Source: Minisyncoccota bacterium
GTDB lineage: Bacteria; Patescibacteriota; Minisyncoccia; Phycocordibacterales; Phycocordibacteraceae
Length of the DNA: 64,000 nucleotides
Direction of reading: 5' to 3'
NCBI GenBank assembly: GCA_041666305.1
Contig: JBAYHD010000004.1
Coordinates: 3,946 to 67,945, forward strand
The notes below the pieces were generated by a model. The model had not been told where the DNA came from, ran no database searches, and saw only the letters and a list, made by a program, of their open reading frames with translations. The translations under genes were made by a program, and so were the position numbers. Below, in pieces: positions 1 to 41,683 of the stretch. Positions within the stretch are counted from its first letter, which is position 1; the number at the start of each line of letters is the position of its first letter.

Positions 1-3000
1 ACTACCAAGACAGCTGTGTTGGTGGTCGTCGCGACCTGGAAGAGGTTCGTGGTGCTATCGGTGGAGTACACCGAGAGGCGGTAGGTGGGCGAAGTGTTGG
101 AGATGCCGACATTGCCGGTGCTGTTGATGATGTGGAATCGGTCGGTCGCGCCAGTCTTGAACGCGATGTCGCCCGAGCCATTCAAGTCAGAGTCGGCGGT
201 GATGACCGCGTCCGCTTGGGCGGTGAGGGTCGAAGCGGTGAGGCCGGCGGTCGCCATACAAGTCGCGTCGGTGAAGCAGAGCTCACTGCTGTTGGTGAGC
301 TGGATGCCGCCGGCGAAACTGCTCTTAACGCTCGTGCTGGTGGCGGTGTAGTGGTCGGCGACGACGCCCGTGCTGCCCACCACCGAGAGCGCAGCATACG
401 GCGAGGTGGTGCCGATGCCGAGGTTGCCGGCGCTCGAGAGGCGCATCTTCTCGCTGATGAGCCCTACGGCCGAATCGGTCTGGAAGCTTAGGTAGCCGCT
501 GTAGTCGCCGGCCGTGGCGTTCTCCATGAAGCCACCGATGAGGCCGAATCCGTATTTCGATATCGCCTTCCCCGTCTGCCCGCCGAAGAGGATGCTCGGG
601 CCAACGCCCGTGTCGCCGGCGGTGGTAGTCTCAAGCGTGAGGAGCGCGGGAGCGGCGGCATTTATCGCATAGGTGTTGTCGCCCTTGATGTGGAGGGCGG
701 ATTCTGGGATTGCGTTGCCCATTCCCACATTCCCGCTCGCTAGCACGGTCATGAGGGTTGAGGTGGATGTGCCGTCGGTGGTGGAGGCGATCGTGAAGAG
801 CGGGGTGTTCGCTGCCGTGCTCGCGGAATTACTGATAGAGAGCATCGAGTACGGAGACGTGGTGCCGATGCCGACGTTGCCTGAAGTATTCAGAATAGTG
901 AAGAAGTCGTTAGCGCCAAAACTAGTGCTGTTAGAAATCTGATAACCCGAATTATTCACTGCGCCACTCACCCAACCGCTGGATGCTCCAAGTGCTTTTT
1001 GATACAGACTTAGGTTATTGCTATCAACCTGCACCTTAAACTGAACCGCATTTGCTCCTGTACGCTCGGCGATGAGGGGCGATGCATTAACCGTCACAAC
1101 TGAATGGAGGAGCGCTGTCGGATTCGCTGTCCCAATCCCAACATTCCCATTCGCCAAGACGGTCATCAGGGTCGTGGTCGCAGTGCCGCCGGTCGTGGAG
1201 GCGATGGTGAAGAGCGGGGTGTTCGCGGCGGTGATCGCGCTATTTGAAATGGAGAGGAGTGAATAGGGCGAGGTAGTCCCGATACCGACGTTGCCTGCGC
1301 CAGTAATGCGCATCTTCTCTGCGATTGTTCCCACATTGCTCGCGAGGAAGGCAATGTCCGACGAGATGGCACCGCCACCGTGACTAGTGAACACACCCGA
1401 GATTTTTGAACCAAGTGCTGTGGTTCCTGCATTGTCTCGCGTCCAGAAGCCGAGGTCGGAGAAGTTGTTGGCCGTATTACTCGTATTCGTTATTGCTATT
1501 GCAGCGTTTGAATTCGTCGTAAGCGTCGTGTTGGTGTGAGATGTTGAAACATCAAGCAGTCGTGAGGGACTCGTCGTCCCGATGCCGACGTTGCCGGCGG
1601 CGTCGATGCGTACTCGCTCGGCGCCGCCGGTGGAAAATGCGAGCGTGCTCGCGAGCGGCGACCACATGCCGGTGATGAGGTCGGAGGAGAAGGTGAAGAC
1701 CGGCGCGCCCGCGAAGCCGCGGGTGGAAGCGGCGAATGCGGGCGCGGTGGAAGTGCCGGTGGAAGTGATGGCGCCGGTGATGGCACTAGTGAACGATGTG
1801 GAGCCCGAGACCGTGAGGTTGCCGCCGACAGTGAGGTTCGCGCCATTCAAAAGCGACAAGTCGCCGTTGCTGTTGATGGTGAGCGCAGTCGTTGTCGCAA
1901 AGCCTGCAGTGCTAGTGGAGATGGCAAAGAGGTTTTGCGTGCCGCCGGCGAGCCCGGCGAGCGAGAGGTTGGCGAAGGGCGAGCTGGTTGCAATGCCGAT
2001 GTTACCTGCGCTGTCTATCGTGAGACGCTCCGTGCTTGAAGTGAAGAAACGCAGGTAGTCGTCGGTGCCGGCGGTGATCTTGGTCGTGAGCGCCGGGTTG
2101 ATGACGCCGCCGATACCCTGCCACACGCCAGTGTCGTTGTAGCCCTCAAACTGGTGCGCGTCGGTGTTGAAGCGCACCTGCCCGATGAGCGCCATCGCCG
2201 GCCTTTGTGCATCGGTGCCGACGGGGATGCGCAGGGCATCGGTGCCGTATATCTCAAAAATGCTTGCCGGCGTGCTGGTGCCGATGCCGATGCGGCCGGT
2301 GTTGCTTGAAATATACAGAAGCGGCGTGGTGGTGCCGACCGTGAAGAAGCCGTCGCCCCACGGCGTGGTGGTGCCGATGGCGAGGCGACCGGCGAAGGTG
2401 CTGGTGGCGGTGGTGCTGGTGGCGATGAAGTACGGCGACTCTACGTGATTGAATGCCGCGAGCGGACCAGCAAACGTGCTGGTGGCGGTGGTGGAAGTTG
2501 CGCTGAAGTAGGAAGCGGAAATTGCTTCGCCGGAAGACAATCCGGAGATAGAAAGGAATCCGGCAGTAAGCGTTCCGCCGATGGTGGCATTGCCGGTCGT
2601 AGTGAAGTTGCCCGTAATGACGGCGTTGCCGGTCTCATTGAAGGCGCCATTGACGGTCGTGTCACCGGCAGTGAGACTGCCGAAGGTGCCGGCGTCTGCG
2701 GAAATCGACGGAATGTTCTGGAATGACAAACCGCGACTATCGCTGAAGCGCGTGATGATGGTTCTCGAAGTGTTCGCAGCGATCGCCGAGAACACATCGA
2801 GACGGAGCGCGGCGAGCGATTGATCCAAATAATCCGGTGAGACGCCCTGAATGATGGTCGTGAAGGAATTCGCGACCCGAGTCGTTGTTGCGTTGGTGGC
2901 GATATTTTGCGGTGCGAAATTTGGATACACGGTCGGCGGCGTAAACAAGAAGGCGAGTGCTCTGCCAGCATCGTTTATGAAATCGTGAATGGTCTCGTAG

Positions 3001-4526
3001 GTGGCGAGTGCGATTTTCTCGCCGGTAGTGAGCGCCGGCAATACCGCGGCGATGGCTGCGGCGACCGGCGGCGAATGAGTTATCGATGTGACCATCGGCG
3101 TCCGTGCGAACGTCTCAAACGCGAGTGCAGTTGTGCCGAGTGCACCGAGATACGCGTCGTTCACCGCGATGCGCGCATTCCTGATGAACGGACTCGCATT
3201 GTTCGCAACTTCGCGCGTGCTCTTCGCGCTTTCGTATGCAAGATTGCCGGCGCCCATCACCGATGCGAGGTACGCGCTTGAAATGCTGTCCGTCGCCGCT
3301 ACAAAATGAGTGGCGCCCGCATATTCCACATCGAAGACCGCTTGAGCGATGGCGGGAGCGATGTGCGCAGGAGCTTCAGTCGCACCGAGGAACACTGCGG
3401 TAGCGAGGGCAGGCACGCGCTCGGCGGCGAGTGCGAGCGCGTTGCCCGTGTTGCCCAGGAGCGCGACTGTGGCGCGAGCGGAGGCGGGTGCCGCGGAGGC
3501 GAGGCCGTAGGAAACCGCCACATCAGCGCCGATGAACGCGTGCGTTGCGTCAATAACCGCCGTGCCGAGCGCGAGATTTGTGTTCGCTATGATTTCCGGC
3601 GTCGCTTTGAGCGTGTCGCGTGTGGTCGCAGCAAGCGCAAGAACTTTTTCACCTGCTGATCCGATGAGCGAGTGGTACGCAGCAAATGCGGCACCGATAC
3701 CGGCGTACGCATTTTCGCCGAGCGCGACATACGCATTCACGAGCGCGCTCGCCGTGCGCGACGGCGAGGTGAGCGTCGCATACGTATCAAACGCAAATGT
3801 CCGCACGTCGTCGGCAGTAACGACCGAACCGTTGATCGCCGACAACTTGGCGGTCCGGTCGCCAAGTCCTGATGCGATGCGAACATTTTTATTTTCATCG
3901 AGCGCCATGCGGAGCGAAGAAAGATCCGGTTCCGCAAGAACGGTTGATGCAATGTTCGCTGTTGTGAATTCGTTTGACGTCGCAACGCGCGGAGAAATTT
4001 TCGCCGCTTCATTTTTCGCCGTATCGATGTGCGCGACGATGCGCGAAGGAATGTCGCCAAACGTCTCAGTGAATCCGAATGCAACCGTGCGTGTCATCTC
4101 TGCCGCACTCGCCGCGAATTGCGGGATCGCTGACGCGTGCGCCGCGAACGCACCTGATGCAACTACGAGAAGCGCTACCGAAAGCGCGAGCGCATGCGAG
4201 CGGATTGAATTTGTTACGAGGCTGAACGGTTTTGGCACATAAAGCGGCGCTGTCAACGTCTTCGTTGCACGATGGATCATCGAGCGGTGCGCACGATACT
4301 CCTCCGCGCGTGCGCTCGCGAGCGCACGCGCGCGAACGATCTTGTGATCGCCCTGCTTATCGAGGAAACGCTCGAGCGAATCTTTTTCGATAAGCCAGTT
4401 GTGTCCGATTCTTTTTCCGGTAATTTTTCCGGAGCGAATGAGGCGAGAAAGATAATCCGAAGTGTACCCAAAAAATTCACCTGCCTCTCTTGTCGTAATC
4501 AAATTTTCTTTAGGTGGAAGGTTCAT
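1..4526 (-). CDS. Giant cell-surface protein, partial (>1500 aa; C-terminus beyond left edge): N-terminal HTH_17 excisionase-type DNA-binding domain, one TM helix, then a long Gly/Thr/Ser/Ala-rich repetitive extracellular region
   Basis: ATG at 4526-4524. Hand translation of the minus strand is open for at least 900 nt: MNLPPKENLITTREAGEFFGYTSDYLSRLIRSGKITGKRIGHNWLIEKDSLERFLDKQ (HTH_17-like), then the hydrophobic stretch ALALSVALLVVASGAFAAHA. All minus-strand ORFs the track lists in 1-4526 share one alternative frame and none is in this frame, which fits one uninterrupted ORF without an in-window stop. The motif GNVGIGTTSP recurs, seen as ccgat(g/a)ccgacgttgcc on the plus strand near 405, 860, 1280, 1585, 1990 and 2285. 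Confidence 0.6.
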   Translation of the reverse strand, partial: MNLPPKENLITTREAGEFFGYTSDYLSRLIRSGKITGKRIGHNWLIEKDSLERFLDKQGDHKIVRARALASARAEEYRAHRSMIHRATKTLTAPLYVPKPFSLVTNSIRSHALALSVALLVVASGAFAAHASAIPQFAASAAEMTRTVAFGFTETFGDIPSRIVAHIDTAKNEAAKISPRVATSNEFTTANIASTVLAEPDLSSLRMALDENKNVRIASGLGDRTAKLSAINGSVVTADDVRTFAFDTYATLTSPSRTASALVNAYVALGENAYAGIGAAFAAYHSLIGSAGEKVLALAATTRDTLKATPEIIANTNLALGTAVIDATHAFIGADVAVSYGLASAAPASARATVALLGNTGNALALAAERVPALATAVFLGATEAPAHIAPAIAQAVFDVEYAGATHFVAATDSISSAYLASVMGAGNLAYESAKSTREVANNASPFIRNARIAVNDAYLGALGTTALAFETFARTPMVTSITHSPPVAAAIAAVLPALTTGEKIALATYETIHDFINDAGRALAFLFTPPTVYPNFAPQNIATNATTTRVANSFTTIIQGVSPDYLDQSLAALRLDVFSAIAANTSRTIITRFSDSRGLSFQNIPSISADAGTFGSLTAGDTTVNGAFNETGNAVITGNFTTTGNATIGGTLTAGFLSISGLSSGEAISASYFSATSTTATSTFAGPLAAFNHVESPYFIATSTTATSTFAGRLAIGTTTPWGDGFFTVGTTTPLLYISSNTGRIGIGTSTPASIFEIYGTDALRIPVGTDAQRPAMALIGQVRFNTDAHQFEGYNDTGVWQGIGGVINPALTTKITAGTDDYLRFFTSSTERLTIDSAGNIGIATSSPFANLSLAGLAGGTQNLFAISTSTAGFATTTALTINSNGDLSLLNGANLTVGGNLTVSGSTSFTSAITGAITSTGTSTAPAFAASTRGFAGAPVFTFSSDLITGMWSPLASTLAFSTGGAERVRIDAAGNVGIGTTSPSRLLDVSTSHTNTTLTTNSNAAIAITNTSNTANNFSDLGFWTRDNAGTTALGSKISGVFTSHGGGAISSDIAFLASNVGTIAEKMRITGAGNVGIGTTSPYSLLSISNSAITAANTPLFTIASTTGGTATTTLMTVLANGNVGIGTANPTALLHSVVTVNASPLIAERTGANAVQFKVQVDSNNLSLYQKALGASSGWVSGAVNNSGYQISNSTSFGANDFFTILNTSGNVGIGTTSPYSMLSISNSASTAANTPLFTIASTTDGTSTSTLMTVLASGNVGMGNAIPESALHIKGDNTYAINAAAPALLTLETTTAGDTGVGPSILFGGQTGKAISKYGFGLIGGFMENATAGDYSGYLSFQTDSAVGLISEKMRLSSAGNLGIGTTSPYAALSVVGSTGVVADHYTATSTSVKSSFAGGIQLTNSSELCFTDATCMATAGLTASTLTAQADAVITADSDLNGSGDIAFKTGATDRFHIINSTGNVGISNTSPTYRLSVYSTDSTTNLFQVATTTNTAVLV
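380..2320 (-). repeat. Intragenic tandem protein repeats (~300-450 nt period) inside the giant surface protein gene
   Basis: Plus-strand segments 700-815 and 1120-1235 are ~80% identical. Shadow ORFs 673..942 and 1072..1266 encode near-identical peptides (VPIPTFP...VEAIVKSGVFAAV). The GNVGIGTT-encoding motif repeats at least 6 times. Confidence 0.55.
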
Positions 4527-5157
4527 GTCGGATATCCGAATTAACTAAATAATAACTTATCATTTCGGCATTTCCTACAAAAAATGTGGGGATAATTATT
4601 TGCAAAAAAGTTACTGTCGCATCGCACTATATTCGCGCATCAAAAATGCATAAAAAATCCGAACATTTTAAGTCCGGAAAGCAGAAAAATTCGCCATAAA
4701 CTCATTCTGAATCAAAAAATTCTCTTTGTTCGCGTCCCAATGCTACTTTTTTCAGAAAAAATAGGCACACAGAGCCATTTTTGCGATCATATACATTATG
4801 TTAGGCAGATATGTGCGGATAGCCGAACAACATAGTGTTTAATTAACTATTCCGGTGCTCCAAACAGCACCTTATACTATCTATATAAAGGTATCCGCAC
4901 ATGTTCGCCTGCGTGTAGGCATTCAATATGCATTATTCACAGGTAGAACGTACACCGCACAGATACCAATGTTCAACACCTGGTGTTGAACATTGGTCAG
5001 TACGATCAACTAAATACCACTTTACGGTGTGTCTATACTCTACGAGCCGTTTACGAGCCCACAAAGCATCATTAAACCTTATAAAATTTATACATCACGA
5101 ACTTAACTTATTAATATGTCGTCTCGTGTATCCGAGACGAGAAACGCTGTATATAAA

Positions 5158-5958
5158 CTATTTATTGTAGAGTGCTACACCTGCAATTAATTGGGCTTGG
5201 CTATTCGAGAGTATGTAGGAGTCCAAATATCCGCTCCCGAGCACTGCAATTGTTGCAATTGCCATCGCAAATACTACTCCGAACGCCTGTAGTGCTCTTA
5301 CTGCCCTTCTGACGCCGCCAACTTCCACCTCCTCGTTTTCCGGCTGGACCACAGTATCTTCTTCAAGCGTCTGCTCAGGCTCATATACCGTGTGTATTGG
5401 TATGCTTACTTCGGGTTCTATCTCTATTGTCGTCTCTACAGCCTCATTTCTGGGCTTTTCCGGCGCGACAGAAGCGATCGTCGGTGTTGCTGTCGGAATA
5501 TTATCGAAACGATCGAACCATGCAGCCCAGGTGTCCTGCAGGCGTTGCGCTACTTCAATTTCTTTTTGCTTATCATCGGTGAGTTCAGGAGATCCATTAC
5601 CACGCAAACGATTCACTGAGGGCAATACTTCCGCATCGGAGGCTTCATAGCGAGGAGATTCCCAGGTAGATTGAAATTGGGGTGCTGTGGAGGTCTTCGG
5701 TTTTGTCTCTTCTATCGGTTCATTCCTCGGATTACCGAAGCGATGGTCATGAAGAGCCGATTCAAGCACATACCAGCTGCGCCCCACGAGCCGTGCAGGC
5801 ACTCTTCCTTCACGACAAAGCTGACCGACGTAATCCTTCGCATATCCGGTCACTTTCGCAGCTTGTTTTGACGATACGTATTTCTTCTCGCCTATGAGTA
5901 TCTCATCCATGTCCACAGTATAGCCATATCTCGGCTGGACTGGAAGGGCTGTGCACAA
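5158..5958 (-). CDS. HTH_17 (excisionase-family helix-turn-helix) protein with C-terminal TM anchor; likely true start at internal Met (MDEILIGEKKY, ~5910)
   Basis: ILIGEKKYVSSKQAAKVTGYAKDYVGQLCREGRVPARLVGRSWYV resembles the HTH of the giant protein. Acidic linker, then C-terminal hydrophobic helix VVFAMAIATIAVLGSGYL. Confidence 0.5.
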   Translation of the reverse strand: MCTALPVQPRYGYTVDMDEILIGEKKYVSSKQAAKVTGYAKDYVGQLCREGRVPARLVGRSWYVLESALHDHRFGNPRNEPIEETKPKTSTAPQFQSTWESPRYEASDAEVLPSVNRLRGNGSPELTDDKQKEIEVAQRLQDTWAAWFDRFDNIPTATPTIASVAPEKPRNEAVETTIEIEPEVSIPIHTVYEPEQTLEEDTVVQPENEEVEVGGVRRAVRALQAFGVVFAMAIATIAVLGSGYLDSYILSNSQAQLIAGVALYNK

Positions 5959-11656: not shown

Positions 11657-11869
11657 AACTAGCCGCGGCGCTTTGCTGCCTTGCGCTTCTTTGTTGCCTT
11701 CTTTGCGGCCTTTCGCTTTTTTGCCATGGTGGTTGCGATTATGGATTGAGACTTATAAGTCGACCCGTCCGCGCGCGAGAAATTTCTTTTGCGCAAACGT
11801 TTCTGAATGTAATTATCGCGCGTAAAAAAGATTTGTGTAAGAAAAAAATACGAAGTGTGGATAACTTTC

Positions 11870-11904: not shown

Positions 11905-12985
11905 CTACGGCACCGATATATTCCACTTCGCGTTCAAGACGGATGCCAAACAGGTCCTCGACCGCCTTTTGCATATCAGAAGCAAGCCGTGCGATATCTT
12001 CCGCACGCGCGTTGCCGACATTGATGATGGAAAGCGTATGCCGCGGCGAAATGCCCGCTCCGCCATGCACATATCCTTTATGGAATTCGGTGTATTCGAG
12101 GAGAAATCCGGGAGCTATTTTGTATGAACCGTCCGGCTGTTCCCATGCCCACGGACGTAAGTGTTCCGCCTTTTCCGCATCAAGGGCGCGAGCACTCGTC
12201 TCGATCTGAGCATATCGTGCAGGAGAAACGAACGGCATATGGAAAAAAGAACCCGCGCTCTTGTAGCAATGGCGACCTTCCATGATGAGCGAACCTTTCT
12301 CTTCGCGCATGGTGAGTACCGCAGCGCGAACATCGGTTTGCGTAGGCGTGTGACCGAGCTTTTCGGCAAGCGTGGCCATATCAAAACGATTATCCCGATA
12401 TGAAAGCTGCGCCGAGGGATCACGCGAGAGCGCGAACGTGGCGCCGACGACGATGTATCGTCCGCTCGCGTGGCCAAACATGCTGTCGTGGTATGAAAAA
12501 TCGCACTGTTCTTTTTCAATAACTTTCAATCCATGATTTTGATCGTGCGTGTCCACCACTTCCGCGTGCACAAATGTATCACTCGCCTGCGCGCCGTACG
12601 CACCGAGATTTGCGACCACCGCTCCGCCGACCGTGCCCGGCACGCCGGAAAGACATTCCAGACCGCTGAGGCCGTGCTGGATTGTCCACACCACGAAGTC
12701 ATCCCACACGACGCCGGAACCGACCGTCACCCACGTTCGATCATCGTGTTCGGCAAGGGTGATGCCTGGTATGCGCATGGAGAGTACCAATCCGTCAAAG
12801 CCGTCGTCGGCAATGACAATGTTTGAGCCGCCGCCGAGCACGAACACCGGGAGTGCGTGCGTGCGTGCAAAATCGAGTGCTTCTTTCACTTCGTCTACCG
12901 ATTGCGGAGCGACAAAAAATCGCGCCTTCCCTCCCACGCCGAGAGTGGTGAGTGGCGCGAGTGGGACGTGTTCCTGGGGAGTCAT
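11891..12985 (-). CDS. murB: UDP-N-acetylenolpyruvoylglucosamine reductase
   Basis: LTTLGVGGKARFFVAPQSVDEVKEALDFARTHALPVFVLGGGSNIVIADDGFDGLVL (FAD-binding PCMH domain) plus a MurB C-terminal domain. Confidence 0.88.
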   Translation of the reverse strand: MTPQEHVPLAPLTTLGVGGKARFFVAPQSVDEVKEALDFARTHALPVFVLGGGSNIVIADDGFDGLVLSMRIPGITLAEHDDRTWVTVGSGVVWDDFVVWTIQHGLSGLECLSGVPGTVGGAVVANLGAYGAQASDTFVHAEVVDTHDQNHGLKVIEKEQCDFSYHDSMFGHASGRYIVVGATFALSRDPSAQLSYRDNRFDMATLAEKLGHTPTQTDVRAAVLTMREEKGSLIMEGRHCYKSAGSFFHMPFVSPARYAQIETSARALDAEKAEHLRPWAWEQPDGSYKIAPGFLLEYTEFHKGYVHGGAGISPRHTLSIINVGNARAEDIARLASDMQKAVEDLFGIRLEREVEYIGAVEKAK

Positions 12986-15168
12986 TGCCCTTGAATCTGT
13001 TTTATCGCGGAGGCACCGGCAGACGCCGCATCAGGGAAGAGTTTTACCGCTGTGTTGATTGCGGCAATGGCATTTGCTCTATCGCCTGATGCATAGTAAG
13101 CGGCCGCGAGAGAAAACCATGATTGGACGGTGGCGCCGGATGCTGCAGTGCGCATCTTCCACAGACGTATGAGACGCGGCCAATTCTTCGCGCGATAATA
13201 CGCGGCCGCGAGGATGTTGCTGTCTACGTCCGTTGTACCGAGGGCCGCTTCCAATATTTTGTCTGCCGTAGCGAAATCACCGATAGCAATATTGCCGGCG
13301 GCTGCATATATGGCGAGGTCAGTGAACTGCGGGCCGAGCTCATATGCCGTACTAAAATCCGTTTGCGCCGCTTTCACATTGCCCATGTCCCACTCGGTCG
13401 CCCCCATTTCAATCCATATTGCCTCTTTCCTCGGCGAAAGAAGCGATGCCGCTTGAATCTCTTTGAGCGCACTGGCGCCGTCGCCCGCCGCACGATACAC
13501 ATACGACAGTTGCAGATGTTCGCGCGCATCAAGAGGATAGGAGGCAATCTGTTTTTGCATTTCAGCCACCGCAAGCGAGACTGCCTGTTGTTTTTCCGTA
13601 TCGGTTGCCTGGGAGCTCTGCGCGATCGCTGCTGCAAAAGAGACCAACTGCTCGCGCACCTCCTGCGCCGCAAAAGCCGGATGCGCGGCAAGGTCTTGGA
13701 ACGTGGCGATGTTTCCCGAAATGCCGGACGAGGAAGACGAGAGCGCTGTAATGAGTTTGGTCGCCGTTTGTATCCCGGGCACATTGACGAACCAAATGAG
13801 CACGCCCGCAACCGCCGCCGCGATCGGAAGCGCGTACGTCATGCCGTCGGCAGGAGTAAGTTCGGGGGCCGCTTCAAGTTTGGCGAGGGGCCGCGCCACT
13901 TGCGAATCGATGAGTGCGAGAAGTGCGAAGAAATAAACGTAAGAATAGAGATTATCGAAAACGAACAGATTGTGAACGGCATACCCGACGAACGCGGCGG
14001 TGAGCGCTATGCGTTCGGGTCGCGAAAGCTCCGAACGCCTCCAGAGCAACATGATGGCCGTACCAAAGAGCGCCAGGTACAAGAGAAATGCCGGGAAGCC
14101 TCCTGCAGTAAGCCAGTCGAGGAATGCGTTGTGCGCTCGGTCGAACCACGGTTCCTGAGCATAGAGCGCCGGGTCGTAGTATTTGTTGAAAATATAGTTG
14201 AATCCTTCCTGCCCCCAGCCGGTGAGCGGGCGTTCAAGCACTCCTTGAAACGCCATGTTCCAGATGATGAAGCGTGTCTGACCGTCGGAAAGCGAAATGG
14301 TGGCGACGCGCTGCAAAATGTGATTTTGCTGGACGAATGCAGAATTGCGCGCGAGATAAAAACCGCCCACTAGAACGAGAATGAGCACGAATCCGCCCGC
14401 CGCCAACCGGCGAGCGTGCTTCCCCGCGGTAAGCGCGGTGAGAAACGCCGCAAGCGCGAGGGCGAGCACAAGTCCTATGATAGTACCGCGTGTCTCGGTG
14501 AAAAAAATGAGCACCGTTTCCAACACCGCGAGTGCGATGAGTGACCACTTGAGCCAAGAGAGTTTTTCGGTAAGTGCAAGCCAGAGCGCGGTGAATATGC
14601 TGAAAAGGAAATAGATAGCTAGATAGGCGGAATTGCCGAGTGTTGCGTCAATGCGTGTAGAGCCCTGGTGTATCGCGAGTGTGCCGTTAAGCTGGAGAAG
14701 CGCGTACCCAGAGATGATGAGTGAGACAACGAGCGACCAGAGGAACCACGCGCGCCACTTTTTTCCCGCTTGCAGTACGGCGCCGGCGGCAAAGAAAAAT
14801 CCGAGCAGATGAATGAGCATCACCCAGCCCTCCATGCGCTCAAAGTTGCTCCAAAATGCTTTTGCGGAATTGATTGCGAACGCGTCCGCGATAAACATCC
14901 ACACAACAAAAGCGACGGCTGCCACGCCTATTGCCGAGACGCGCGGACGGTATTCTTTGTCGAGGAGTGCAAGCACTACCCACGCTGCGACCGTTATCTC
15001 AACAAGGATGCGAAAGTAGAATGCTTTGCCGGTGATGAACGGGAAGAAATACCCGTCCGCGACAACGAGCGGCATAAGCGGAATGAGAAACAGCGCTCCG
15101 AGCGCCACCCAGCGTGCGATCTGCTTTACGGTACTGTCTCCCTGCATGATTGGACAATCATACCACAT
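12982..15168 (-). CDS. O-antigen ligase/Wzy_C-like polytopic membrane protein with C-terminal TPR-repeat domain
   Basis: About 10 TM helices in the N-terminal half (LGNSAYLAIYFLFSIFTALWLAL, FTETRGTIIGLVLALALAAF). The C-terminal 300 aa is an Ala-rich helical repeat (TPR-like). Confidence 0.7.
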   Translation of the reverse strand: MWYDCPIMQGDSTVKQIARWVALGALFLIPLMPLVVADGYFFPFITGKAFYFRILVEITVAAWVVLALLDKEYRPRVSAIGVAAVAFVVWMFIADAFAINSAKAFWSNFERMEGWVMLIHLLGFFFAAGAVLQAGKKWRAWFLWSLVVSLIISGYALLQLNGTLAIHQGSTRIDATLGNSAYLAIYFLFSIFTALWLALTEKLSWLKWSLIALAVLETVLIFFTETRGTIIGLVLALALAAFLTALTAGKHARRLAAGGFVLILVLVGGFYLARNSAFVQQNHILQRVATISLSDGQTRFIIWNMAFQGVLERPLTGWGQEGFNYIFNKYYDPALYAQEPWFDRAHNAFLDWLTAGGFPAFLLYLALFGTAIMLLWRRSELSRPERIALTAAFVGYAVHNLFVFDNLYSYVYFFALLALIDSQVARPLAKLEAAPELTPADGMTYALPIAAAVAGVLIWFVNVPGIQTATKLITALSSSSSGISGNIATFQDLAAHPAFAAQEVREQLVSFAAAIAQSSQATDTEKQQAVSLAVAEMQKQIASYPLDAREHLQLSYVYRAAGDGASALKEIQAASLLSPRKEAIWIEMGATEWDMGNVKAAQTDFSTAYELGPQFTDLAIYAAAGNIAIGDFATADKILEAALGTTDVDSNILAAAYYRAKNWPRLIRLWKMRTAASGATVQSWFSLAAAYYASGDRANAIAAINTAVKLFPDAASAGASAIKQIQGQ

Positions 15169-15196
15169 GCCCTAAAGCTCTTCCTTTTGACACCTC

Positions 15197-15223
15197 CCAT
15201 GTAGGACCTCCGAGGTCCTACAT
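15197..15223. repeat. REP-like palindromic hairpin, copy 1 (CATGTAGGACCTCCGAGGTCCTACATG)
   Basis: 13-bp perfect stem; 17 nt upstream of the RAYT start codon. Confidence 0.8.
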
Positions 15224-15239
15224 GGGTTATACTTGCTGA

Positions 15240-15914
15240 ATGGAGTTGTATCACGTGCTTAATCGAGGAGTTGATGGACGCAAACTATTTCTCGACTCGC
15301 AAGATTATGTGCGCTTTATACATAATTTGTTCGAATTCAATGATTCTGCTCCGTCAGTAGGATCTGCTCGCCGAGACATATGCGACACGAATGTAGGACC
15401 TCGGAGGTCCTACATTCGGAAACGACTGGTTGAGATCCATGGTTGGGTTCTCATGAAGGACCACTACCATTTAATCATCTCAGAACTTATTGAGGGCGGG
15501 TTGCTAAAATTCATGATGAAAGTAAATGTCGGCTACGCAAAATATTATAATGAACGATATACACGACACGGTCATCTCTTCCAAGGGAAGACGAAGAAAA
15601 TTCGCATCGAGCGTGCAGCGCATTTCTTATACATACTCCATTATGTGCACCTCAATCCTCTCGATTATTTGAGGGGAGCAGCCACATGGCGCGAGCGTGA
15701 TAAAAATACCATCAAAAACACACGCGAGGCATTGAAATATTTGGATGAATACCGTTGGAGCAGTTATCTCGATTATTGCAGCAAAAAGAATTTCCCTTCC
15801 ATCCTCACCAAGAGAATATTCGGAAATGTGTTTGGTAATTATCAGGAAGTGATCAAAGACTATTTGAAGAATGTTGAGGAATCGCCGATTGGTGACTCCA
15901 CCATTCTTGAATAG
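15240..15914 (+). mobile_element. IS200/IS605-family Y1 (HUH) transposase of the REP-associated tyrosine transposase (RAYT) type
   Basis: N-terminal YHVLNRGVDGRKLF; HUH motif HGWVLMKDHYHLII; Tyr-rich helix AKYYNERY. Flanked by REP palindromes, with a third copy in-frame inside the ORF. Confidence 0.75.
15391..15415. repeat. REP-like palindrome copy 2 (ATGTAGGACCTCGGAGGTCCTACAT), inside the RAYT coding sequence
   Basis: Exact 25-mer; it encodes NVGPRRSYI within the ORF. Confidence 0.8.
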
Positions 15915-15927
15915 CAGTGTGATATTG

Positions 15928-15952
15928 ATGTAGGACCTCGGAGGTCCTACAT
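15928..15952. repeat. REP-like palindrome copy 3, 14 nt downstream of the RAYT stop
   Basis: Exact 25-mer, identical to copy 2. Confidence 0.8.
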
Positions 15953-16026
15953 ATAGATACATACAAAACGCCCCGCGAAAAGCGGGGCATTTTGCGTTCA
16001 TATTTTTATTTCTCTAAGGCCTGGTT

Positions 16027-16857
16027 TTAAAACCGCCAGATGAAGAGTCCCCACATCTTCTGTTCTCTCTGTGCGAGGTCTTGAAGACGCGCCTGAGCAT
16101 CTTCCAATGCTTCTATTTGCGCCTTGAGGACCACCTGAATGTCTGCCGACACACTGGCTTCAACGAGAAGCTTGTTGAGGTCGGTGATGCGCTGTTGGTT
16201 TTGTGCGACTGCTTGCGAGATAACATTCGCCGCCGCACTATCGCCACCGAAGAAGAGTCGCGCAAGGAAACTGCGCGACTGTATCTTCGCTTCAGCCTTT
16301 GTCGTCGTTGCGACCGAATCATTCATCTCTTTCGCAATTTCCGATACTTTCGGACCGATGTCGCCGATGAGATCTTTGGAAGCGAGAAGCGCGTGCACTG
16401 CAAGGCGTACCTCGTTCGCATTTTTTACGATACCCCTATTCTGTTCTGTCGTGCTCGCCTCTTCATCCTCGAGTTCGAGTTTGCGATTCTCAATCTTCTG
16501 ATTCAGATCATCGAGCGAGAACGCGGTATCTTTATCGTCTTCGAGTTCGAACTCAAATTCGTCTTGATCATTTTGGTCATCGTTTATCGATTCATTATCA
16601 TCCCCGCTCTTCGAGCTGGTCGCTTGATTGTCGTTCCTGCGGTTCGAACTGGTCGCCTCATCGTCATCGTCATTGACTCGCGCGCTTCCGGTCACCGATG
16701 TGTCCACATCATCAGAGACGCGGACTTGCGTAACGGCGGTTATTTGTGTATCCGCACTTCCCTCGCCATCGTTGTTTTCGGCGGCCGCAATAGCCGGGAG
16801 TCCACTCATGGCGATCGCAAGTGCGAATGCCCCGCTCGTAAAGAGATATTTTTTCAT
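16027..16857 (-). CDS. Secreted acidic low-complexity protein with C-terminal coiled coil
   Basis: Signal peptide MKKYLFTSGAFALAIAMSGLPAIAAA; Asp/Glu/Ser/Asn-rich region; C-terminal heptad-like QAVAQNQQRITDLNKLLVEA...LEDAQARLQDLAQ. Confidence 0.5.
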   Translation of the reverse strand: MKKYLFTSGAFALAIAMSGLPAIAAAENNDGEGSADTQITAVTQVRVSDDVDTSVTGSARVNDDDDEATSSNRRNDNQATSSKSGDDNESINDDQNDQDEFEFELEDDKDTAFSLDDLNQKIENRKLELEDEEASTTEQNRGIVKNANEVRLAVHALLASKDLIGDIGPKVSEIAKEMNDSVATTTKAEAKIQSRSFLARLFFGGDSAAANVISQAVAQNQQRITDLNKLLVEASVSADIQVVLKAQIEALEDAQARLQDLAQREQKMWGLFIWRF

Positions 16858-34321: not shown

Positions 34322-36202
34322 TCAAGATTTTACGTTACTGACGCGCCGAATGAGCTCTGCGACACGCTCGAACGATCTTCCATCAAGCACAAAATTCTCT
34401 TGTACAAAAGCATCGGCGCGCGCTACGAGCACCGCACGATTATTCGGGGCAGCAAGATGCTTCAGATGCGCATGTAATTCCTCCTTCGTGCGTGCCATCA
34501 AAACCGCGCCGGACTCCCAAAACTCCTTAAAGTCATTATCCAAGACTTTAGGTACATACATAATAACTGATTTGTGCATAAGCAATGCCTCCAGTATTAC
34601 GGTAGATGTACCTGAAAGAACAATGTCCGAAAGAGCCAGAAGTACTTGCAGATCTTCGTGGACGAGTAGACGACTTTCTTTACCAAACAACCGATGTATC
34701 TCCTGCTCATAAAAAGATCTACGAAAGCTCGGCCTGGGTCTGAAGAGTATTTGTAACGAGAGATCTCGTTGTGCCTCTGCAACATCTTCGAAAATTCGCT
34801 GCACCTCGTAACTCGTATGGTTTCCGTATTCGAGCAACGAATAGGAGACCTCTGGCATCCCCCACATGACCGTGCAACGTCCCTTTTTTAATCCCAGGCG
34901 CTGCTGCAGATCAATAATTTTCTCCTTTGGCAGGGCTGATGCATAGCGGTCGAAGCGTGGCGAACCTACGGACACTAACCGTTGCGACGCAATCCCCCAC
35001 GACTCGTACATACCGTTGATAAGCGGCCCATACGAGGCGAGGTAACGACTATTGAGCCGGCAGTGCACGAGCGTCTTTTCATTGTTAACAAGCGCATGCT
35101 CAAGCTCAATGGAGGGTATGTCCATATTCTCCGCAACGCGGGCGACAAGATTGCTGTACCCTTTAATCGAAGTACGGAGGAGTACGCAGTTGACCTTGTA
35201 GCGAGCAAAGAGACGCTTGGTGTTCTCTATAGTTGCTATGGTATCCTCGGCATATTCTTTGACTATACAGTCGAGTGCCTGCCGCACTACCGGCCACAGC
35301 GATATATTGTTGTAGACAAAACCCTTGCTTATTTCTGGTACCTCGCCGAGAGCATCCCATCGTTCCGCCATGGTCCTTGCGCGAGTTCGCGCGAGTTCGC
35401 GGACATGCGTGTCCACAAAATCAAGACGGTGACAAAAACGCGCGCGCGCGCGCCATGCGAGGACAGGTAGCATGGTGCGCATCTCTTGCCGTCGCGACAT
35501 AATAAGCTCGACATCCGGCATTGTGCTGATAAAAGGCTCTACCCGATACCATGGATCGGTGGCAAAAAGAACGATGGGGCGTGGGCGGTGCCATGCATCA
35601 ACGAGGGCATTCCACACCACACTTATTGCTCGTGCGAACCACTGCTCTAAAGCTATGCGCAAAACGCTTAAGAACACTGCGCTCTGTTGTACGAGCGGCG
35701 TACGGATAACCTCGACGGTCACATTGTGCTTCTTCGCCAAGAGTCGCACCACATCTTCAACGACACGCGCTCTAAACACGGCGACTGGATCGGCGGTTGG
35801 CAACATGCCAGATTTTTCGAAGACGCACGCGTTAATCGCATTGGGATATGCCGTGAACACCTGATCGAGCATGGCCGCCCAATAAAACACTGTCTGTATG
35901 TAGTAAAGGATTGCGGGCTCATATTGCTCGCCAAGTTTAATTCCGTCGTATTCAAAAAAGGCCGTCTCGGACGCGGTGTACCAGCCTGAAGCAAGAGCGC
36001 GTGTGCGCTCTAGCAGTGCACGGTCGCCATCGGGCGAGACGGCAATAGTAACAAGCGAGATAAACGGTATGTCGTGTTTCTGCAAATCCAATTCAATCTC
36101 ATAGTCAAGGGCAACAACTATTGGAGCATCTCGCCCATCTAAAAGTTCCCGCACATAGGGAACCTGTTCCGGTTTGGATATAAAAAAAAGAGTCGTATTC
36201 AT
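34322..36202 (-). CDS. Large hypothetical protein (626 aa) with GT-B-like C-terminal half (TagF/KpsS/PseG-like?); candidate glycan transferase or hydrolase
   Basis: C-terminal VLSGTSTVILEALLMHKSVIMYVP resembles the GT-B nucleotide-binding C-terminal Rossmann. No definitive motif. Confidence 0.35.
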   Translation of the reverse strand: MNTTLFFISKPEQVPYVRELLDGRDAPIVVALDYEIELDLQKHDIPFISLVTIAVSPDGDRALLERTRALASGWYTASETAFFEYDGIKLGEQYEPAILYYIQTVFYWAAMLDQVFTAYPNAINACVFEKSGMLPTADPVAVFRARVVEDVVRLLAKKHNVTVEVIRTPLVQQSAVFLSVLRIALEQWFARAISVVWNALVDAWHRPRPIVLFATDPWYRVEPFISTMPDVELIMSRRQEMRTMLPVLAWRARARFCHRLDFVDTHVRELARTRARTMAERWDALGEVPEISKGFVYNNISLWPVVRQALDCIVKEYAEDTIATIENTKRLFARYKVNCVLLRTSIKGYSNLVARVAENMDIPSIELEHALVNNEKTLVHCRLNSRYLASYGPLINGMYESWGIASQRLVSVGSPRFDRYASALPKEKIIDLQQRLGLKKGRCTVMWGMPEVSYSLLEYGNHTSYEVQRIFEDVAEAQRDLSLQILFRPRPSFRRSFYEQEIHRLFGKESRLLVHEDLQVLLALSDIVLSGTSTVILEALLMHKSVIMYVPKVLDNDFKEFWESGAVLMARTKEELHAHLKHLAAPNNRAVLVARADAFVQENFVLDGRSFERVAELIRRVSNVKS

Positions 36203-36229
36203 GCTATGTATCGGTATCCAGCAGCAGTA

Positions 36230-36922
36230 TTATTTTTTTCTGAGAAGAAACCACATTTGCCTTGTTTTCTTATCACGCTCGACCGTTTTCAGTTCCTCTC
36301 GGTCTAGATTTACGAGAGTGAATACTTGCTCTATTTTTTCTATATCGAAAAATGGATACACCGCCTGTGACATATCCTGAAAATTTCTATAGGTTGACAC
36401 ATATCTGTTTTGCAAAAATTCAGAATATCCATCAAAAGTGAAAGTATCAAGATACGAAGTCGGGACCTTCATGATCAAGACCCCTTCGGGATTCAGGAGT
36501 TTGTGGCACTCATCCAGATAGGTGGTGAACTTGTCGTCAGTAAGGTACTGGACCAGGCCGATTGATACTATGGTGTCATATTTTTTGTCGCCATATTCGC
36601 TCCACATCTCATCCGTCCCGCATGCTTTGGCGTGTATATTTTCAATGTGTTCCTCCGCGATTTTCTTATTCAAAATCTTTATATTGTTTGATGCAAAATC
36701 AAAACAATCAAATTGTATCTTTGGATGCAGTTTCGATAGTTCTATGCAGTGCCTTCCGGTGCCACACCCGGTGTCTAACAGAGCACCCTCGCGCATATGG
36801 ACATGTACCCACGCCACTTCGATGAGATCGCCTTTTAAAGACAGCGCCTCGCCATACCGCCATGGATCATGGTCGGTAAGTTTGTCAGCCCTCTCATTAA
36901 ATATTTGTTTTAAGTCAGTCAT
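36230..36922 (-). CDS. Class I SAM-dependent methyltransferase
   Basis: LLDTGCGTGRHCIEL, TIVSIGLVQYLTDD, PEGVLIMKVP. Confidence 0.75.
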   Translation of the reverse strand: MTDLKQIFNERADKLTDHDPWRYGEALSLKGDLIEVAWVHVHMREGALLDTGCGTGRHCIELSKLHPKIQFDCFDFASNNIKILNKKIAEEHIENIHAKACGTDEMWSEYGDKKYDTIVSIGLVQYLTDDKFTTYLDECHKLLNPEGVLIMKVPTSYLDTFTFDGYSEFLQNRYVSTYRNFQDMSQAVYPFFDIEKIEQVFTLVNLDREELKTVERDKKTRQMWFLLRKK

Positions 36923-36924
36923 GG

Positions 36925-40976: not shown

Positions 40977-40996
40977 GTGTCGAATGTATCGAGAAA

Positions 40997-41593: not shown

Positions 41594-41683
41594 AGCAGTT
41601 AGCGTATCAGCGGAATCTTACAAACACAAGAACCGTTGCTCCTATACACAGAGAGGTCGTATTACGATCTTTTGAAGAATCTT

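What the first reader, a model, noticed from the sequence alone, without database searches (positions are those of the whole stretch)
1..4526. Giant HTH_17 + TM + tandem-repeat surface protein missing from the ORF track
A >1500-aa open frame starts at ATG 4526 on the minus strand and runs off the left edge, so the track omits it. It joins an excisionase-type helix-turn-helix to one TM helix and a long Gly/Thr/Ser/Ala-rich ectodomain. The ectodomain is built from units of about 100-150 aa that repeat the GNVGIGTTSP motif. A cytoplasmic DNA-binding fold fused to a huge extracellular repeat protein recurs in CPR genomes but has no established function. The repeat block may be recombinationally unstable, giving phase or length variation.
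Basis: partly seen in the sequence, partly recalled or inferred. Interest (0 to 1): 0.55.

Follow-up and report, generated by a model that had tools for sequence, protein, structure and literature searches.

The report
Giant membrane-anchored fibre with cytoplasmic HTH
The window holds the first quarter of an 18.6-kb gene of an ultra-small (CPR/Patescibacteria) bacterium that encodes a phage-tail-fibre-like surface fibre, probably for gripping other cells, unusually anchored in the membrane by a DNA-binding domain that sits next to a strikingly conserved DNA palindrome at the gene's own start.

Summary
The minus-strand frame from ATG 4526 is open for all 1508 codons. It has HTH_17 at aa 9-58 (29 bits, cut-off 27), one conserved N-in/C-out TM helix (aa 111-131), and nine GNVGIGTxxP motifs from aa 744 on.

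An identical JGI contig shows the gene is called at 6209 codons, so the window holds about 24% of it.

The shaft is homologous to Bdellovibrio MAT fibres (PDB 8OND, E 7e-8 and 3e-13) and to phage tail fibres. That part is a known kind.

Three features are new:
- The N-terminal anchor, made of an Xis-type HTH, the TM helix and a ~430-aa Ala-rich helical module. This module defines a Patescibacteria-only family (289 50%-identity clusters; members up to 7214 aa).
- Fixed synteny: gatB, a small HTH_17/TM paralogue, a 400-720-nt spacer, then the giant gene.
- A near-invariant 46-nt 5' element. It carries the palindrome TCGGNTATCCGA abutting the ATG and a DnaA-box-like TTATCC[A/C]CA at -68 to -80.

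Recombinational instability is not supported: the longest exact repeat is 20 nt in the window and 32 nt over 9.4 kb.

Best reading: a signal-anchored trimeric host-attachment fibre whose HTH binds its own operator. The binding step is inferred, not shown. This is a new variant of a known kind.

The parts
1..4526 (-). First 1508 codons (codons occupy 3-4526) of a giant gene that continues past the left edge. An identical JGI contig calls it at 6209 residues.
   Evidence: No stop in 1508 codons. L032 is identical to the window over 5910 of 5910 nt and carries a 6209-residue gene call, of which 3123 codons were read and are open.
4353..4502 (-). Cytoplasmic excisionase/MerR-type winged helix-turn-helix (aa 9-58).
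   Evidence: Pfam HTH_17 scores 29 bits against a cut-off of 27. AF2 pLDDT is 88-92 with a strand-helix-helix-strand-strand-helix topology. Best Foldseek matches are Xis Pukovnik, TraN, RdfS, BldC and Tn916 Xis.
4251..4349 (-). Basic cytoplasmic helix linking the HTH to the membrane (aa 60-92).
   Evidence: AF2 predicts helix 62-91. R67, L69, R73, E76 and Y77 are nearly invariant.
4134..4196 (-). Single TM helix acting as a signal anchor (aa 111-131), ending in a conserved G-x-x-x-A / A-x-A.
   Evidence: Hydropathy 2.0. Conserved in 25 homologues with a positive-inside charge bias; A126 and A129 are at least 90% conserved.
2847..4124 (-). Family-specific Ala-rich module predicted to be all-alpha (aa 135-560); the presumed proximal stalk.
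   Evidence: 23% Ala. Collinear and about 40% identical among orthologues. AF2 predicts long helices but with pLDDT below 50. No PDB or Pfam match.
2427..2846 (-). Junction between stalk and shaft (aa 561-700), rich in S, T, A and G.
   Evidence: Composition. This segment lies within the conserved collinear N-terminal part in several orthologues.
3..2426 (-). Start of the tail-fibre/MAT-type shaft (aa 701-1508) with 9 GNVGIGTxxP motifs.
   Evidence: phrog_9942 tail fibre E 2e-35. PDB 8OND Bd2133 E 7e-8. At least 715 homologues, many carrying Peptidase_S74, Ig-like or PTL_trimer domains. 137 phage records match.
4527..4572 (-). Near-invariant 46-nt 5' element directly upstream of the ATG (ATGCCGnAA...AAGTTATTATTTAGTTAATTCGGnTATCCGAC), with no Shine-Dalgarno sequence.
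   Evidence: Identical block in 4 of 4 loci found by protein similarity. An exact 24-nt pattern (23 specified bases) occurs in 25 species genomes and always precedes this gene. Conservation profile. Three further independent loci.
4528..4539 (.). 12-nt palindrome TCGGATATCCGA at -13 to -2; candidate operator.
   Evidence: No stable RNA fold in this region (z 0.11).
4815..4827 (.). Second, upstream copy of the palindrome (TTCGGCTATCCGC, 1 mismatch) at -300.
   Evidence: A second copy with at most 1 mismatch lies at -290 to -650 in 7 of 28 loci, against about 0.2 expected by my own estimate.
4587..4595 (-). DnaA-box-like 9-mer TTATCCCCA at -69.
   Evidence: TTATCC[AC]CA occurs in the same orientation at -68 to -80 in 26 of 27 loci, against a background of 0.028 per kb, and was not part of the search pattern. 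It is also present in L035-L037.
5158..5910 (-). Small paralogue (250 aa): HTH_17, an acidic linker and a C-terminal TM helix. It is always the gene just upstream.
   Evidence: HTH_17 scores 26.6 bits. Sequence. Its HTH is 26% identical to the giant's, E 9e-9. It is present between gatB and the giant gene in 26 of 28 loci, and the other two lack enough upstream sequence to tell. It has 1509 homologues.
5119..5141 (-). Conserved hairpin (CTCGTCTCG-loop-CGAGACGA) just after the small gene's stop; a likely terminator that separates the two transcription units.
   Evidence: Conserved in all four aligned loci. Sequence.

Best explanation
The ORF is the 5' quarter of an 18.6-kb chromosomal gene of a Paceibacteria-type CPR bacterium. 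It encodes a very long cell-surface fibre.

Shown:
- An Xis/MerR-type winged HTH is followed by a basic helix and then a single TM helix with N-in/C-out charge bias.
- A family-specific Ala-rich helical module comes next, followed by a mosaic shaft homologous to the trimeric beta-helical fibres of Bdellovibrio (MAT proteins) and to phage tail fibres.
- Complete relatives end in a bacterial Ig-like domain, and one carries a Peptidase_S74 chaperone domain.

Inferred mechanism:
- The TM helix acts as a signal anchor, so the Sec machinery threads the ectodomain out.
- Three chains assemble into a fibre roughly 0.3-0.4 um long. It projects from a cell of similar size and binds a host or partner cell surface, as MAT fibres do for Bdellovibrio prey and tail fibres do for phages.
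- The variable, module-swapped distal part would set the binding specificity.
- The three HTH domains stay at the inner face of the membrane and bind the invariant palindrome TCGGNTATCCGA that abuts the gene's own start codon. An upstream copy is sometimes present as well.
- This would give feedback control of a very costly gene. The small HTH_17/TM paralogue encoded just upstream would be a partner or competitor for the same site.
For: Gene and size.

HTH. The most conserved residues (D24, Y25, R28, L29, R31, S32, G33, G41, W44) lie in the predicted second helix of the HTH (aa 23-32) and the hairpin after it. I take these to be the recognition helix and wing.

Topology.

Shaft homology:
- PHROG tail fibre, E 2e-35.
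- Bd2133 structure 8OND, E 7e-8 and 3.2e-13, with the GN[VL]G[IL]GT..P motif aligned to the same motif in the crystal construct.
- MAT fibres are surface-displayed trimers, and for one of them (Bd2439) binding to prey glycans was shown (PMC10769870).
- At least 715 homologues, many with PF13884, PF16403 or PF26696 domains.

Mosaicism: the N-terminal 620-760 aa are collinear at about 40% identity, while shaft modules sit at different positions in different orthologues.

Tips of complete members: Ig-like domain plus a Thr/Pro-rich tail; S74 in the L008 orthologue.

Not a phage gene:
- Housekeeping neighbours.
- Fixed synteny in 26 of 28 loci.
- The 5' element is absent from viral contigs.
- The N-terminal module is absent from phage genomes.

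Operator:
- The 46-nt block is near-invariant although the proteins are only about 40-50% identical.
- Extra palindrome copies occur in 7 of 28 spacers.
- There is no RNA structure signal.
- The only two HTH proteins of this subfamily in the 64 kb flank the element.
Against: - Trimerisation, surface exposure and ligand binding are inferred from homologues only.
- The monomer AF2 model of aa 60-620 has low confidence (pLDDT below 50).
- The distal half of this particular protein (aa 3124-6209) could not be retrieved, so its tip is unknown.
- Nothing shows that either HTH binds the palindrome. The element could be a promoter or translation signal recognised by something else.
- The upstream box looks like a DnaA box, so DnaA is an alternative reader.
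- Xis-type domains usually bind direct repeats or bend DNA rather than recognising palindromes.
- Foldseek E-values for the HTH are weak (0.03 or higher) because the domain is small.
- In several orthologues HTH_17 scores below Pfam's cut-off.
- No host is known for this lineage.
Confidence: 0.55

Rival explanations
1. Pre-protein reading. The hydrophobic segment is an internal, cleavable signal sequence. Signal peptidase I cuts after the conserved A-x-A (A129-H-A131|S). This releases the fibre, which would then be held on the wall by the Ala-rich module. A 131-aa HTH-TM stub stays in the membrane, with the same layout as the small neighbouring paralogue.
For: The segment has n-, h- and c-regions like a signal peptide. 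A-[HQRK]-A closes the hydrophobic core in about 21 of 25 homologues, and A129 is at least 90% conserved. The small paralogue has an HTH-linker-TM layout.
Against: The same residues form a G-x-x-x-A helix-packing motif, which would suit a trimeric TM bundle. A folded 110-aa domain ahead of a signal sequence is unusual. No cleavage predictor or proteomic data are available here.
Confidence: 0.15
2. The HTH is not a DNA reader. It is a protein-protein adaptor, as in RodZ, whose cytoplasmic HTH binds MreB. It would position or cluster the fibre through a cytoskeletal, divisome or secretion partner. The conserved 5' element would then simply be a strong promoter and non-Shine-Dalgarno translation signal, possibly DnaA-regulated.
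For: The bitopic HTH-TM-ectodomain layout matches RodZ (my own knowledge of RodZ). A DnaA-box-like 9-mer is conserved at -68 to -80. The AT-rich block resembles a -10 region or translation enhancer, and no Shine-Dalgarno sequence is present.
Against: Pfam returned no RodZ or XRE-type family for this protein. The fold matches DNA-binding Xis, BldC and TraN proteins. In L037 the AT-rich block is replaced while the palindrome is retained. Extra palindrome copies occur far upstream in 7 of 28 loci, which a translation signal would not explain.
Confidence: 0.15
3. It is a phage-derived gene: a prophage, tailocin or gene-transfer-agent tail fibre resident in the chromosome, and not a cellular adhesin.
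For: PHROG tail-fibre hits. 137 phage records share shaft similarity. The HTH is of the excisionase type.
Against: No phage genes lie nearby. Orthologous position next to gatB in at least 26 genomes. The protein has a TM anchor at its N-terminus. The N-terminal module and the 5' element are absent from phage and viral collections.
Confidence: 0.04

Closest known systems
Bdellovibrio bacteriovorus MAT (mosaic adhesive trimer) fibres, e.g. Bd2133 (PDB 8OND), Bd2439, Bd3182 (Caulton et al. 2024, PMC10769870)
   Same: The shaft shows sequence homology with the GN[VL]G[IL]GT..P loop motif aligned. Both have mosaic, module-swapped distal parts. Relatives carry S74 or other adhesive tips. Both belong to a bacterium that lives on other cells.
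   Different: MAT proteins have a signal peptide followed by a conserved ~130-aa beta-rich base domain and are about 600-1150 aa long. This protein has a cytoplasmic HTH, a TM anchor and a ~430-aa alpha-helical module, and is 6209 aa long. The cell envelope it sits in is also different.
Phage tail fibres and tailspikes with the Peptidase_S74 intramolecular chaperone (T5 pb1, K1F endosialidase; PHROG 9942/18345)
   Same: The same shaft repeat family. S74 is present in the L008 orthologue with an S-x-x-x-x-K motif.
   Different: The gene is not in a virion gene cluster. The protein is anchored in the cell membrane rather than to a baseplate. In L008 the S74 domain is internal and is followed by at least 300 aa that include an Ig-like domain.
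ToxR/CadC/TcpP-type membrane-bound one-component regulators
   Same: N-terminal cytoplasmic DNA-binding domain, a single TM helix and an extracytoplasmic domain.
   Different: Those use an OmpR-type winged helix and a small sensor domain. This protein has an Xis/MerR-type HTH_17 and a multi-thousand-residue fibre. DNA binding is not shown here.
MYRF (eukaryotic membrane-bound transcription factor with a phage S74/ICA domain; PMC3742443)
   Same: It combines a DNA-binding domain, a TM helix and tail-fibre-derived parts in one trimerising polypeptide.
   Different: In MYRF the S74 domain lies between the DNA-binding domain and the TM helix on the cytoplasmic side, and cleaves to free the factor. 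Here the fibre (and S74 in relatives) is on the far side of the membrane, so S74 cleavage could not release the HTH.
RodZ
   Same: Cytoplasmic HTH, a single TM helix and an outside domain. It is the precedent for an HTH used for protein binding.
   Different: The HTH class is different, there is no sequence match, and the ectodomain is unrelated.

Membership tests
Pfam HTH_17 / excisionase-type winged helix | Score above the family's gathering threshold | tested here: met
   29.0 bits against 27, aa 9-58. TIGR01764 is just below its cut-off, 26.7 against 28.8.
Pfam HTH_17 / excisionase-type winged helix | Winged-helix fold of the Xis/MerR N-terminal domain type | tested here: met
   AF2 pLDDT is 88-92. 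Top Foldseek matches are Xis Pukovnik, TraN, RdfS, BldC and Tn916 Xis, with probability 0.9-1.0 and rmsd 1.6-5 A (below 3 A for BldC, TraN and RdfS) over about 50-55 residues. E-values are weak, 0.03 or higher.
Pfam HTH_17 / excisionase-type winged helix | Binds DNA | not testable with these tools
   Indirect evidence only: an invariant palindrome lies at the gene's own start.
MAT superfamily (Caulton et al. 2024) | Signal peptide followed by a conserved ~130-aa beta-rich N-terminal domain | tested here: not met
   The N-terminus is an HTH, then a TM helix at aa 111-131, then a module predicted to be all-alpha. The defining feature is taken from PMC10769870.
MAT superfamily (Caulton et al. 2024) | Beta-helical fibre segments with the conserved loop motif | tested here: met
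   phmmer against Bd2133 (8OND) gives E 7e-8 and 3.2e-13, with weaker hits to 8OML and 8OJN. The motif is aligned.
MAT superfamily (Caulton et al. 2024) | Homotrimer along its whole length | not testable with these tools
   Only monomer prediction is available.
MAT superfamily (Caulton et al. 2024) | C-terminal S74 domain or another adhesive tip | tested here: inconclusive
   The tip of this gene lies outside the sequence I could obtain. Relatives have S74 or an Ig-like domain.
Phage tail fibre (virion component) | Encoded within a phage structural gene module | tested here: not met
   Neighbours are gatB, obg, secA and murB. The synteny is conserved. No viral contig carries the 5' element.
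ToxR/CadC-type membrane-bound regulators | OmpR-type (Trans_reg_C) DNA-binding domain | tested here: not met
   Pfam finds only HTH_17 and a weak AbiEi_4 match.
ToxR/CadC-type membrane-bound regulators | Cytoplasmic DNA-binding domain, one TM helix and an outside domain | tested here: met
MYRF-type self-cleaving membrane transcription factor | S74/ICA domain between the DNA-binding domain and the TM helix, on the same side of the membrane | tested here: not met
   There is no S74 in aa 1-3123. In the L008 orthologue it lies at aa 2292-2349, far beyond the TM helix.
RodZ | XRE-type HTH plus a RodZ C-terminal domain | tested here: not met
   No such Pfam hits.

The most novel reading that the evidence does not exclude
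The protein is a contact sensor as well as an adhesin. Engagement or pulling of the roughly 0.3-um fibre by a host cell would be relayed across the single TM helix to the N-terminal HTH. The relay could work by proteolytic release, as in Notch, MYRF or RIP systems, or by changing the HTH's hold on the palindrome at its own start codon. That would switch gene expression when the epibiont docks.

A related possibility is co-translational autorepression in cis. The HTH is the first domain to leave the ribosome. It could bind the operator of the very gene copy being transcribed while the remaining ~6100 codons are still being translated. This would limit each cell to a few copies of a very costly protein.
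Probability: 0.12. Interest if true: 0.85.

Novelty: new variant of a known kind. Interest (0 to 1): 0.62.

Why it matters
How CPR/Patescibacteria outside the cultivated Saccharibacteria attach to and sense their hosts is largely unknown. This locus offers a concrete, widely conserved candidate.

- **Cost and conservation.** A single gene takes up roughly 2% of a genome of about 1 Mb (my estimate of CPR genome size). It sits at a fixed chromosomal position.
- **Link to known systems.** Its shaft is related to the prey-recognition fibres of Bdellovibrio and to the receptor-binding fibres of phages. This ties three 'live on another cell' lifestyles to one fibre toolkit.
- **Testable regulation.** The N-terminal HTH-TM anchor, its small paralogue and the near-invariant palindrome give a directly testable hypothesis for membrane-tethered gene regulation in organisms with very few regulators.
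- **Practical use.** The 24-nt pattern (23 specified bases) used in the DNA search is a specific probe for finding this locus in metagenomes. The variable distal modules could serve as markers of host range.

Tried and rejected
1. **Tandem or long DNA repeats as a source of instability.** Tandem Repeats Finder reports only 15-43-nt arrays. The best long repeat pair is 193 nt at 74% identity. The longest exact repeats are 20 nt and 32 nt. Rejected. The 25-32-nt motif-coding repeats are in frame and could at most allow rare length changes.

2. **A structured 5' RNA element.** The minimum free energy is no better than shuffled sequence (z 0.11). Rfam has nothing at gathering score and only a chance-level hit at E 0.23. 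Rejected.

3. **The spacer as oriC, prompted by the DnaA-like box.**
   - There is only one box per spacer.
   - Genes on both sides are on the same strand.
   - The only GC-skew change coincides with the giant gene's own composition.
   - Rejected.

4. **Prophage.** Rejected.

5. **'Nearly all homologues are partial, so the gene breaks assemblies'.** I first read this way. However, the search for homologous proteins returned no protein longer than about 1415 aa. The other library holds members of 2000-7214 aa. The 'partial' label therefore looks like a length bias. Withdrawn.

6. **Retrieving aa 3124-6209.** The metagenome scan returned only two distant loci, not the source contig. The look-up by the small protein is limited to a 10-kb flank.

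7. **Fold search of the 620-aa N-terminal model.** Not attempted because pLDDT is 46.5.

9. **Literature.** No paper links HTH_17 or MAT fibres to Patescibacteria. Nelson & Stegen 2015 mention only generic proteins over 1500 aa with 'features indicative of adhesins'.
Full report
**1. Observation**

- Translating window 4526->1 on the minus strand gives 1508 codons and no stop.
- The stop-to-stop frame reaches only six codons above ATG 4526 and has no alternative start. Orthologues begin at the same methionine.
- Pfam HTH_17 matches aa 9-58 at 29.0 bits, above the 27-bit gathering score (E 1.3e-6). NCBIfam 'excise' falls just under its cut-off (26.7 against 28.8). PHROG excisionase families match weakly.
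- The most hydrophobic 19-residue window is aa 113-131 (2.0).
- In 25 homologues that segment is conserved (mean 2.07). It has 5.0 K+R in the 30 residues before it and 1.5 after it, so the N-terminus is inside and the C-terminus outside.
- The G[NR][VLI]G[IM].. motif occurs nine times between aa 744 and 1471, at spacings of 49-137 aa.

- The repeats start only at about aa 740.
- Residues 135-560 are a distinct, non-repetitive, 23%-Ala module.
- The units are not regular 100-150-aa repeats.

**2. True size**

- The small neighbouring protein is 100% identical to database protein P0268, named 'Candidatus Paceibacterota bacterium'.
- Looking it up returned JGI contig 3300037810 Ga0376277_0002734. 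That contig is identical to the window over all 5910 compared bases. It carries a 6209-residue gene call for this ORF.
- I could read 3123 of those codons. All are open and contain 28 motif copies.
- The window therefore holds about 24% of an 18.6-kb gene. The remaining 3086 codons could not be retrieved.

**3. What the parts are**

*HTH.*
- An AF2 model of aa 1-102 is confident for aa 10-50 (pLDDT 88-92). Its topology is strand-helix-helix-strand-strand-helix.
- Its nearest solved folds are all DNA-binding members of the Xis/MerR winged-helix class: mycobacteriophage Pukovnik Xis, Enterococcus TraN, RdfS, BldC and Tn916 Xis. Probabilities are 0.9-1.0, but E-values are 0.03 or higher because the domain is small.

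*Alpha module (aa 135-560).*
- It has no Pfam or PDB relative.
- AF2 predicts long helices at low confidence (pLDDT below 50).
- It is nevertheless the part that defines the family. The first 620-760 residues are collinear and about 40% identical among orthologues.

*Shaft (from about aa 700).*
- It matches PHROG tail-fibre families (E 2e-35 and 4e-25).
- It also matches the solved Bdellovibrio MAT fibre Bd2133 (8OND). E is 7e-8 for the window part and 3.2e-13 for aa 1501-3123. Hits to 8OML and 8OJN are weaker.
- The alignments place GNVGIGTTSP opposite GNLGLGTAAP and GNVGIGATAP of the crystallised Bd2133 segment.
- Caulton et al. (PMC10769870) describe related capping loops on the edges of an intertwined trimeric beta-helix. 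They also describe surface display, one shown case of prey-glycan binding (Bd2439), and tip swapping.
- At least 715 database proteins match the shaft at E<=1e-10. Many carry Peptidase_S74, Bact_surface_Ig-like or PTL_trimer domains and are labelled 'tail fiber domain-containing', including some from Bdellovibrionaceae and Kaiserbacteria.
- 137 phage genomes, mostly cyanophages and pelagiphages, match at about 30% identity.
- Shaft modules are not collinear between orthologues. For example, window aa 744-1129 aligns with L008 aa 1488-1870. This is the mosaic pattern typical of such fibres.

**4. The family**

- A profile of the N-terminal region finds 289 representatives of 50%-identity clusters at E<1e-30. 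Many start at residue 1 with the HTH and are 2000-7214 aa long.
- Complete members end in a Bact_surface_Ig-like domain followed by a Thr/Pro-rich tail.
- The orthologue in L008 is open for more than 2652 aa. It has Peptidase_S74 at aa 2292-2349 with an SSERFK motif.
- All named members are Patescibacteria: Kaiserbacteria, Paceibacterota, Minisyncoccia and Parcubacteria.
- The N-terminal module is absent from phage genomes apart from a marginal HTH hit.

**5. The locus**

- In 26 of 28 loci the order is gatB, a ~250-aa protein, a 400-720-nt AT-rich spacer, then the giant gene. The two exceptions lack enough upstream sequence to tell.
- The small protein is itself HTH_17 plus an acidic linker plus a C-terminal TM helix. 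Its HTH is a paralogue of the giant's (26% identity, E 9e-9, with a shared GY..DY signature).
- These are the only two such HTHs in the 64 kb.
- Further upstream lie obg, a TrpR-like gene, secA, murB and a Wzy_C/TPR gene. This is an ordinary chromosomal context.

**6. The 5' element**

- The 46 nt before the ATG are almost invariant, although the proteins are only about 40-50% identical. This was first seen in four loci found by protein similarity.
- A 24-nt pattern from it (23 specified bases) then hit 25 species-level genomes, all Patescibacteria. In every case it sits one base before an ORF of this family.
- Conservation extends beyond the searched pattern to -46.
- The element ends in the palindrome TCGG-N-TATCCGA at -13 to -2.
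- A second copy with at most one mismatch lies 290-650 nt upstream in 7 of 28 spacers, including the window at 4815-4827. My own estimate of the chance expectation is about 0.2.
- An independent feature, not in the search pattern, is a DnaA-box-like TTATCC[A/C]CA. It occurs in the same orientation at -68 to -80 in 26 of 27 loci, against a background of 0.028 per kb. In the window it lies at 4587-4595.
- Three more loci fetched by protein look-up keep the box and the palindrome. In L037 the AT-rich block between them is replaced while the palindrome is intact. In L035 the palindrome is degenerate.
- The region has no Shine-Dalgarno sequence. It has no RNA-fold signal (z 0.11) and no Rfam match.
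- It does not look like oriC. There is one box only, genes on both sides share a strand, and no true skew switch is present.
- I read it as a promoter plus operator.
- The most conserved HTH residues (D24, Y25, R28, R31, S32, G33, G41, W44) fall in the predicted second helix (aa 23-32) and the hairpin after it. I take these to be the recognition helix and wing. That fits a conserved DNA target. This link is an inference.

**7. Mechanism**

Shown: the domain order, the topology signal, the shaft homology, the conserved synteny and the conserved 5' element.

Inferred:
- The TM helix acts as a signal anchor.
- Three chains form a fibre. Scaling from the ~550-A model of the 782-residue mature Bd3182 to roughly 5500 shaft residues gives about 0.3-0.4 um. 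This is a rough figure, comparable to the cell itself.
- The distal modules bind a partner cell surface.
- The HTHs remain at the membrane's inner face and, with or against the small paralogue, occupy the palindrome to limit expression of an 18.6-kb gene.

Rivals:
- Signal-peptidase cleavage at the conserved A-x-A after the hydrophobic core, leaving an HTH-TM stub that mimics the small paralogue.
- A RodZ-like protein-binding role for the HTH, with the element being a promoter or translation signal read by DnaA or a sigma factor.
- A phage origin, which context argues against.

**8. Instability claim**

- No tandem arrays of note were found.
- The best long repeat is 193 nt at 74% identity.
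- The longest exact direct repeats are 20 nt within the window and 32 nt within 9.4 kb. All of the latter encode the motif and are in frame.
- In the two most similar units, 27 of 53 identical residues use different codons.
- This argues against active recombination or phase variation. Diversity arises between lineages by module exchange.

**9. Comparison and novelty**

- The shaft works like a MAT or tail fibre and is homologous to both. The protein fails the MAT membership test on the defining N-terminal base domain. It fails the phage test on gene context.
- Its topology resembles ToxR/CadC regulators and RodZ, but its HTH is of a different class.
- It recalls MYRF in joining a DNA-binding domain, a TM helix and tail-fibre parts, but the order of parts across the membrane differs (PMC3742443).
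- Verdict: a real, conserved, very large gene and a new variant of a known kind. The anchor, the paralogue pair and the operator-like element are the unexplained and interesting part.

Noticed in passing
L013 (JAKAGD010000021.1), orthologue aa 1184-1552: The orthologous giant gene of another MAG is interrupted by an intein. It has Intein_splicing at E 2e-17 and boundaries GQ|CVTGDT ... VAHN|T. It carries a nested NYN nuclease domain (E 4e-17) where a homing endonuclease would normally sit.
   Followed up: partly
L008 (JBEKII010000003.1), orthologue aa 2292-2652: Peptidase_S74 (motif SSERFK) is internal, not C-terminal. At least 300 more residues follow, including a Bact_surface_Ig-like domain. 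Self-cleavage would shed a distal piece rather than only a chaperone.
   Followed up: partly
window 4587-4595 and 11856-11864 (both minus strand): These are the only two DnaA-box-like TTATCC[A/C]CA sites in the 64 kb. One is the conserved box upstream of the giant gene. The other lies in the spacer upstream of secA.
   Followed up: partly
window 4965-4997: A perfect 16+16-nt inverted repeat (ACCAATGTTCAACACC / GGTGTTGAACATTGGT) lies in the spacer. A 19-nt imperfect inverted repeat containing CGGATA half-sites lies at 4803-4821 / 4892-4910. Neither is conserved in the other loci aligned.
   Followed up: partly
L001 (ERZ27249449 k141_710474) and L002 (Ga0376277_0005643): Two other assemblies of the same sequence stop near this locus. 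One ends about 240 nt after the small HTH gene and the other ends inside gatB. The cause is unknown; strain variation or coverage are possibilities.
   Followed up: no
L013 and L027 (both MAG WY2.bin144); P0001 and P0022 (both locus-tag series Q8O70): Some bins hold two copies of the HTH-TM-fibre gene, both with the 5' element. This could reflect paralogues or mixed strains.
   Followed up: no
window 34322-44640 (minus strand), GC 0.43-0.45 at 36-40 kb: A low-GC cluster of envelope-glycopolymer genes: Glyphos_transf, LicD, a MobA-like nucleotidyltransferase, DUF711, methyltransferases and a GT1 glycosyltransferase. It may build the wall polymer that the fibre must cross.
   Followed up: partly
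window 15240-15914 (+): A weak IS200-like Y1 transposase hit (23.2 bits against a cut-off of 23). It is one of the few plus-strand genes in the left half of the window.
   Followed up: no
L006 (ERZ1286166 contig_4388) 12835-16305: In a long-read contig with frameshifted genes, the giant gene is followed by a 1156-aa protein with faint Kelch/beta-propeller hits. A PTL_trimer (PF26696) hit lies within the fragmented fibre gene.
   Followed up: no
tool behaviour: the search for homologous proteins returned no protein longer than about 1415 aa, while the representative library holds family members up to 7214 aa. 'Partial' labels among the hits therefore look like a length bias.
   Followed up: yes
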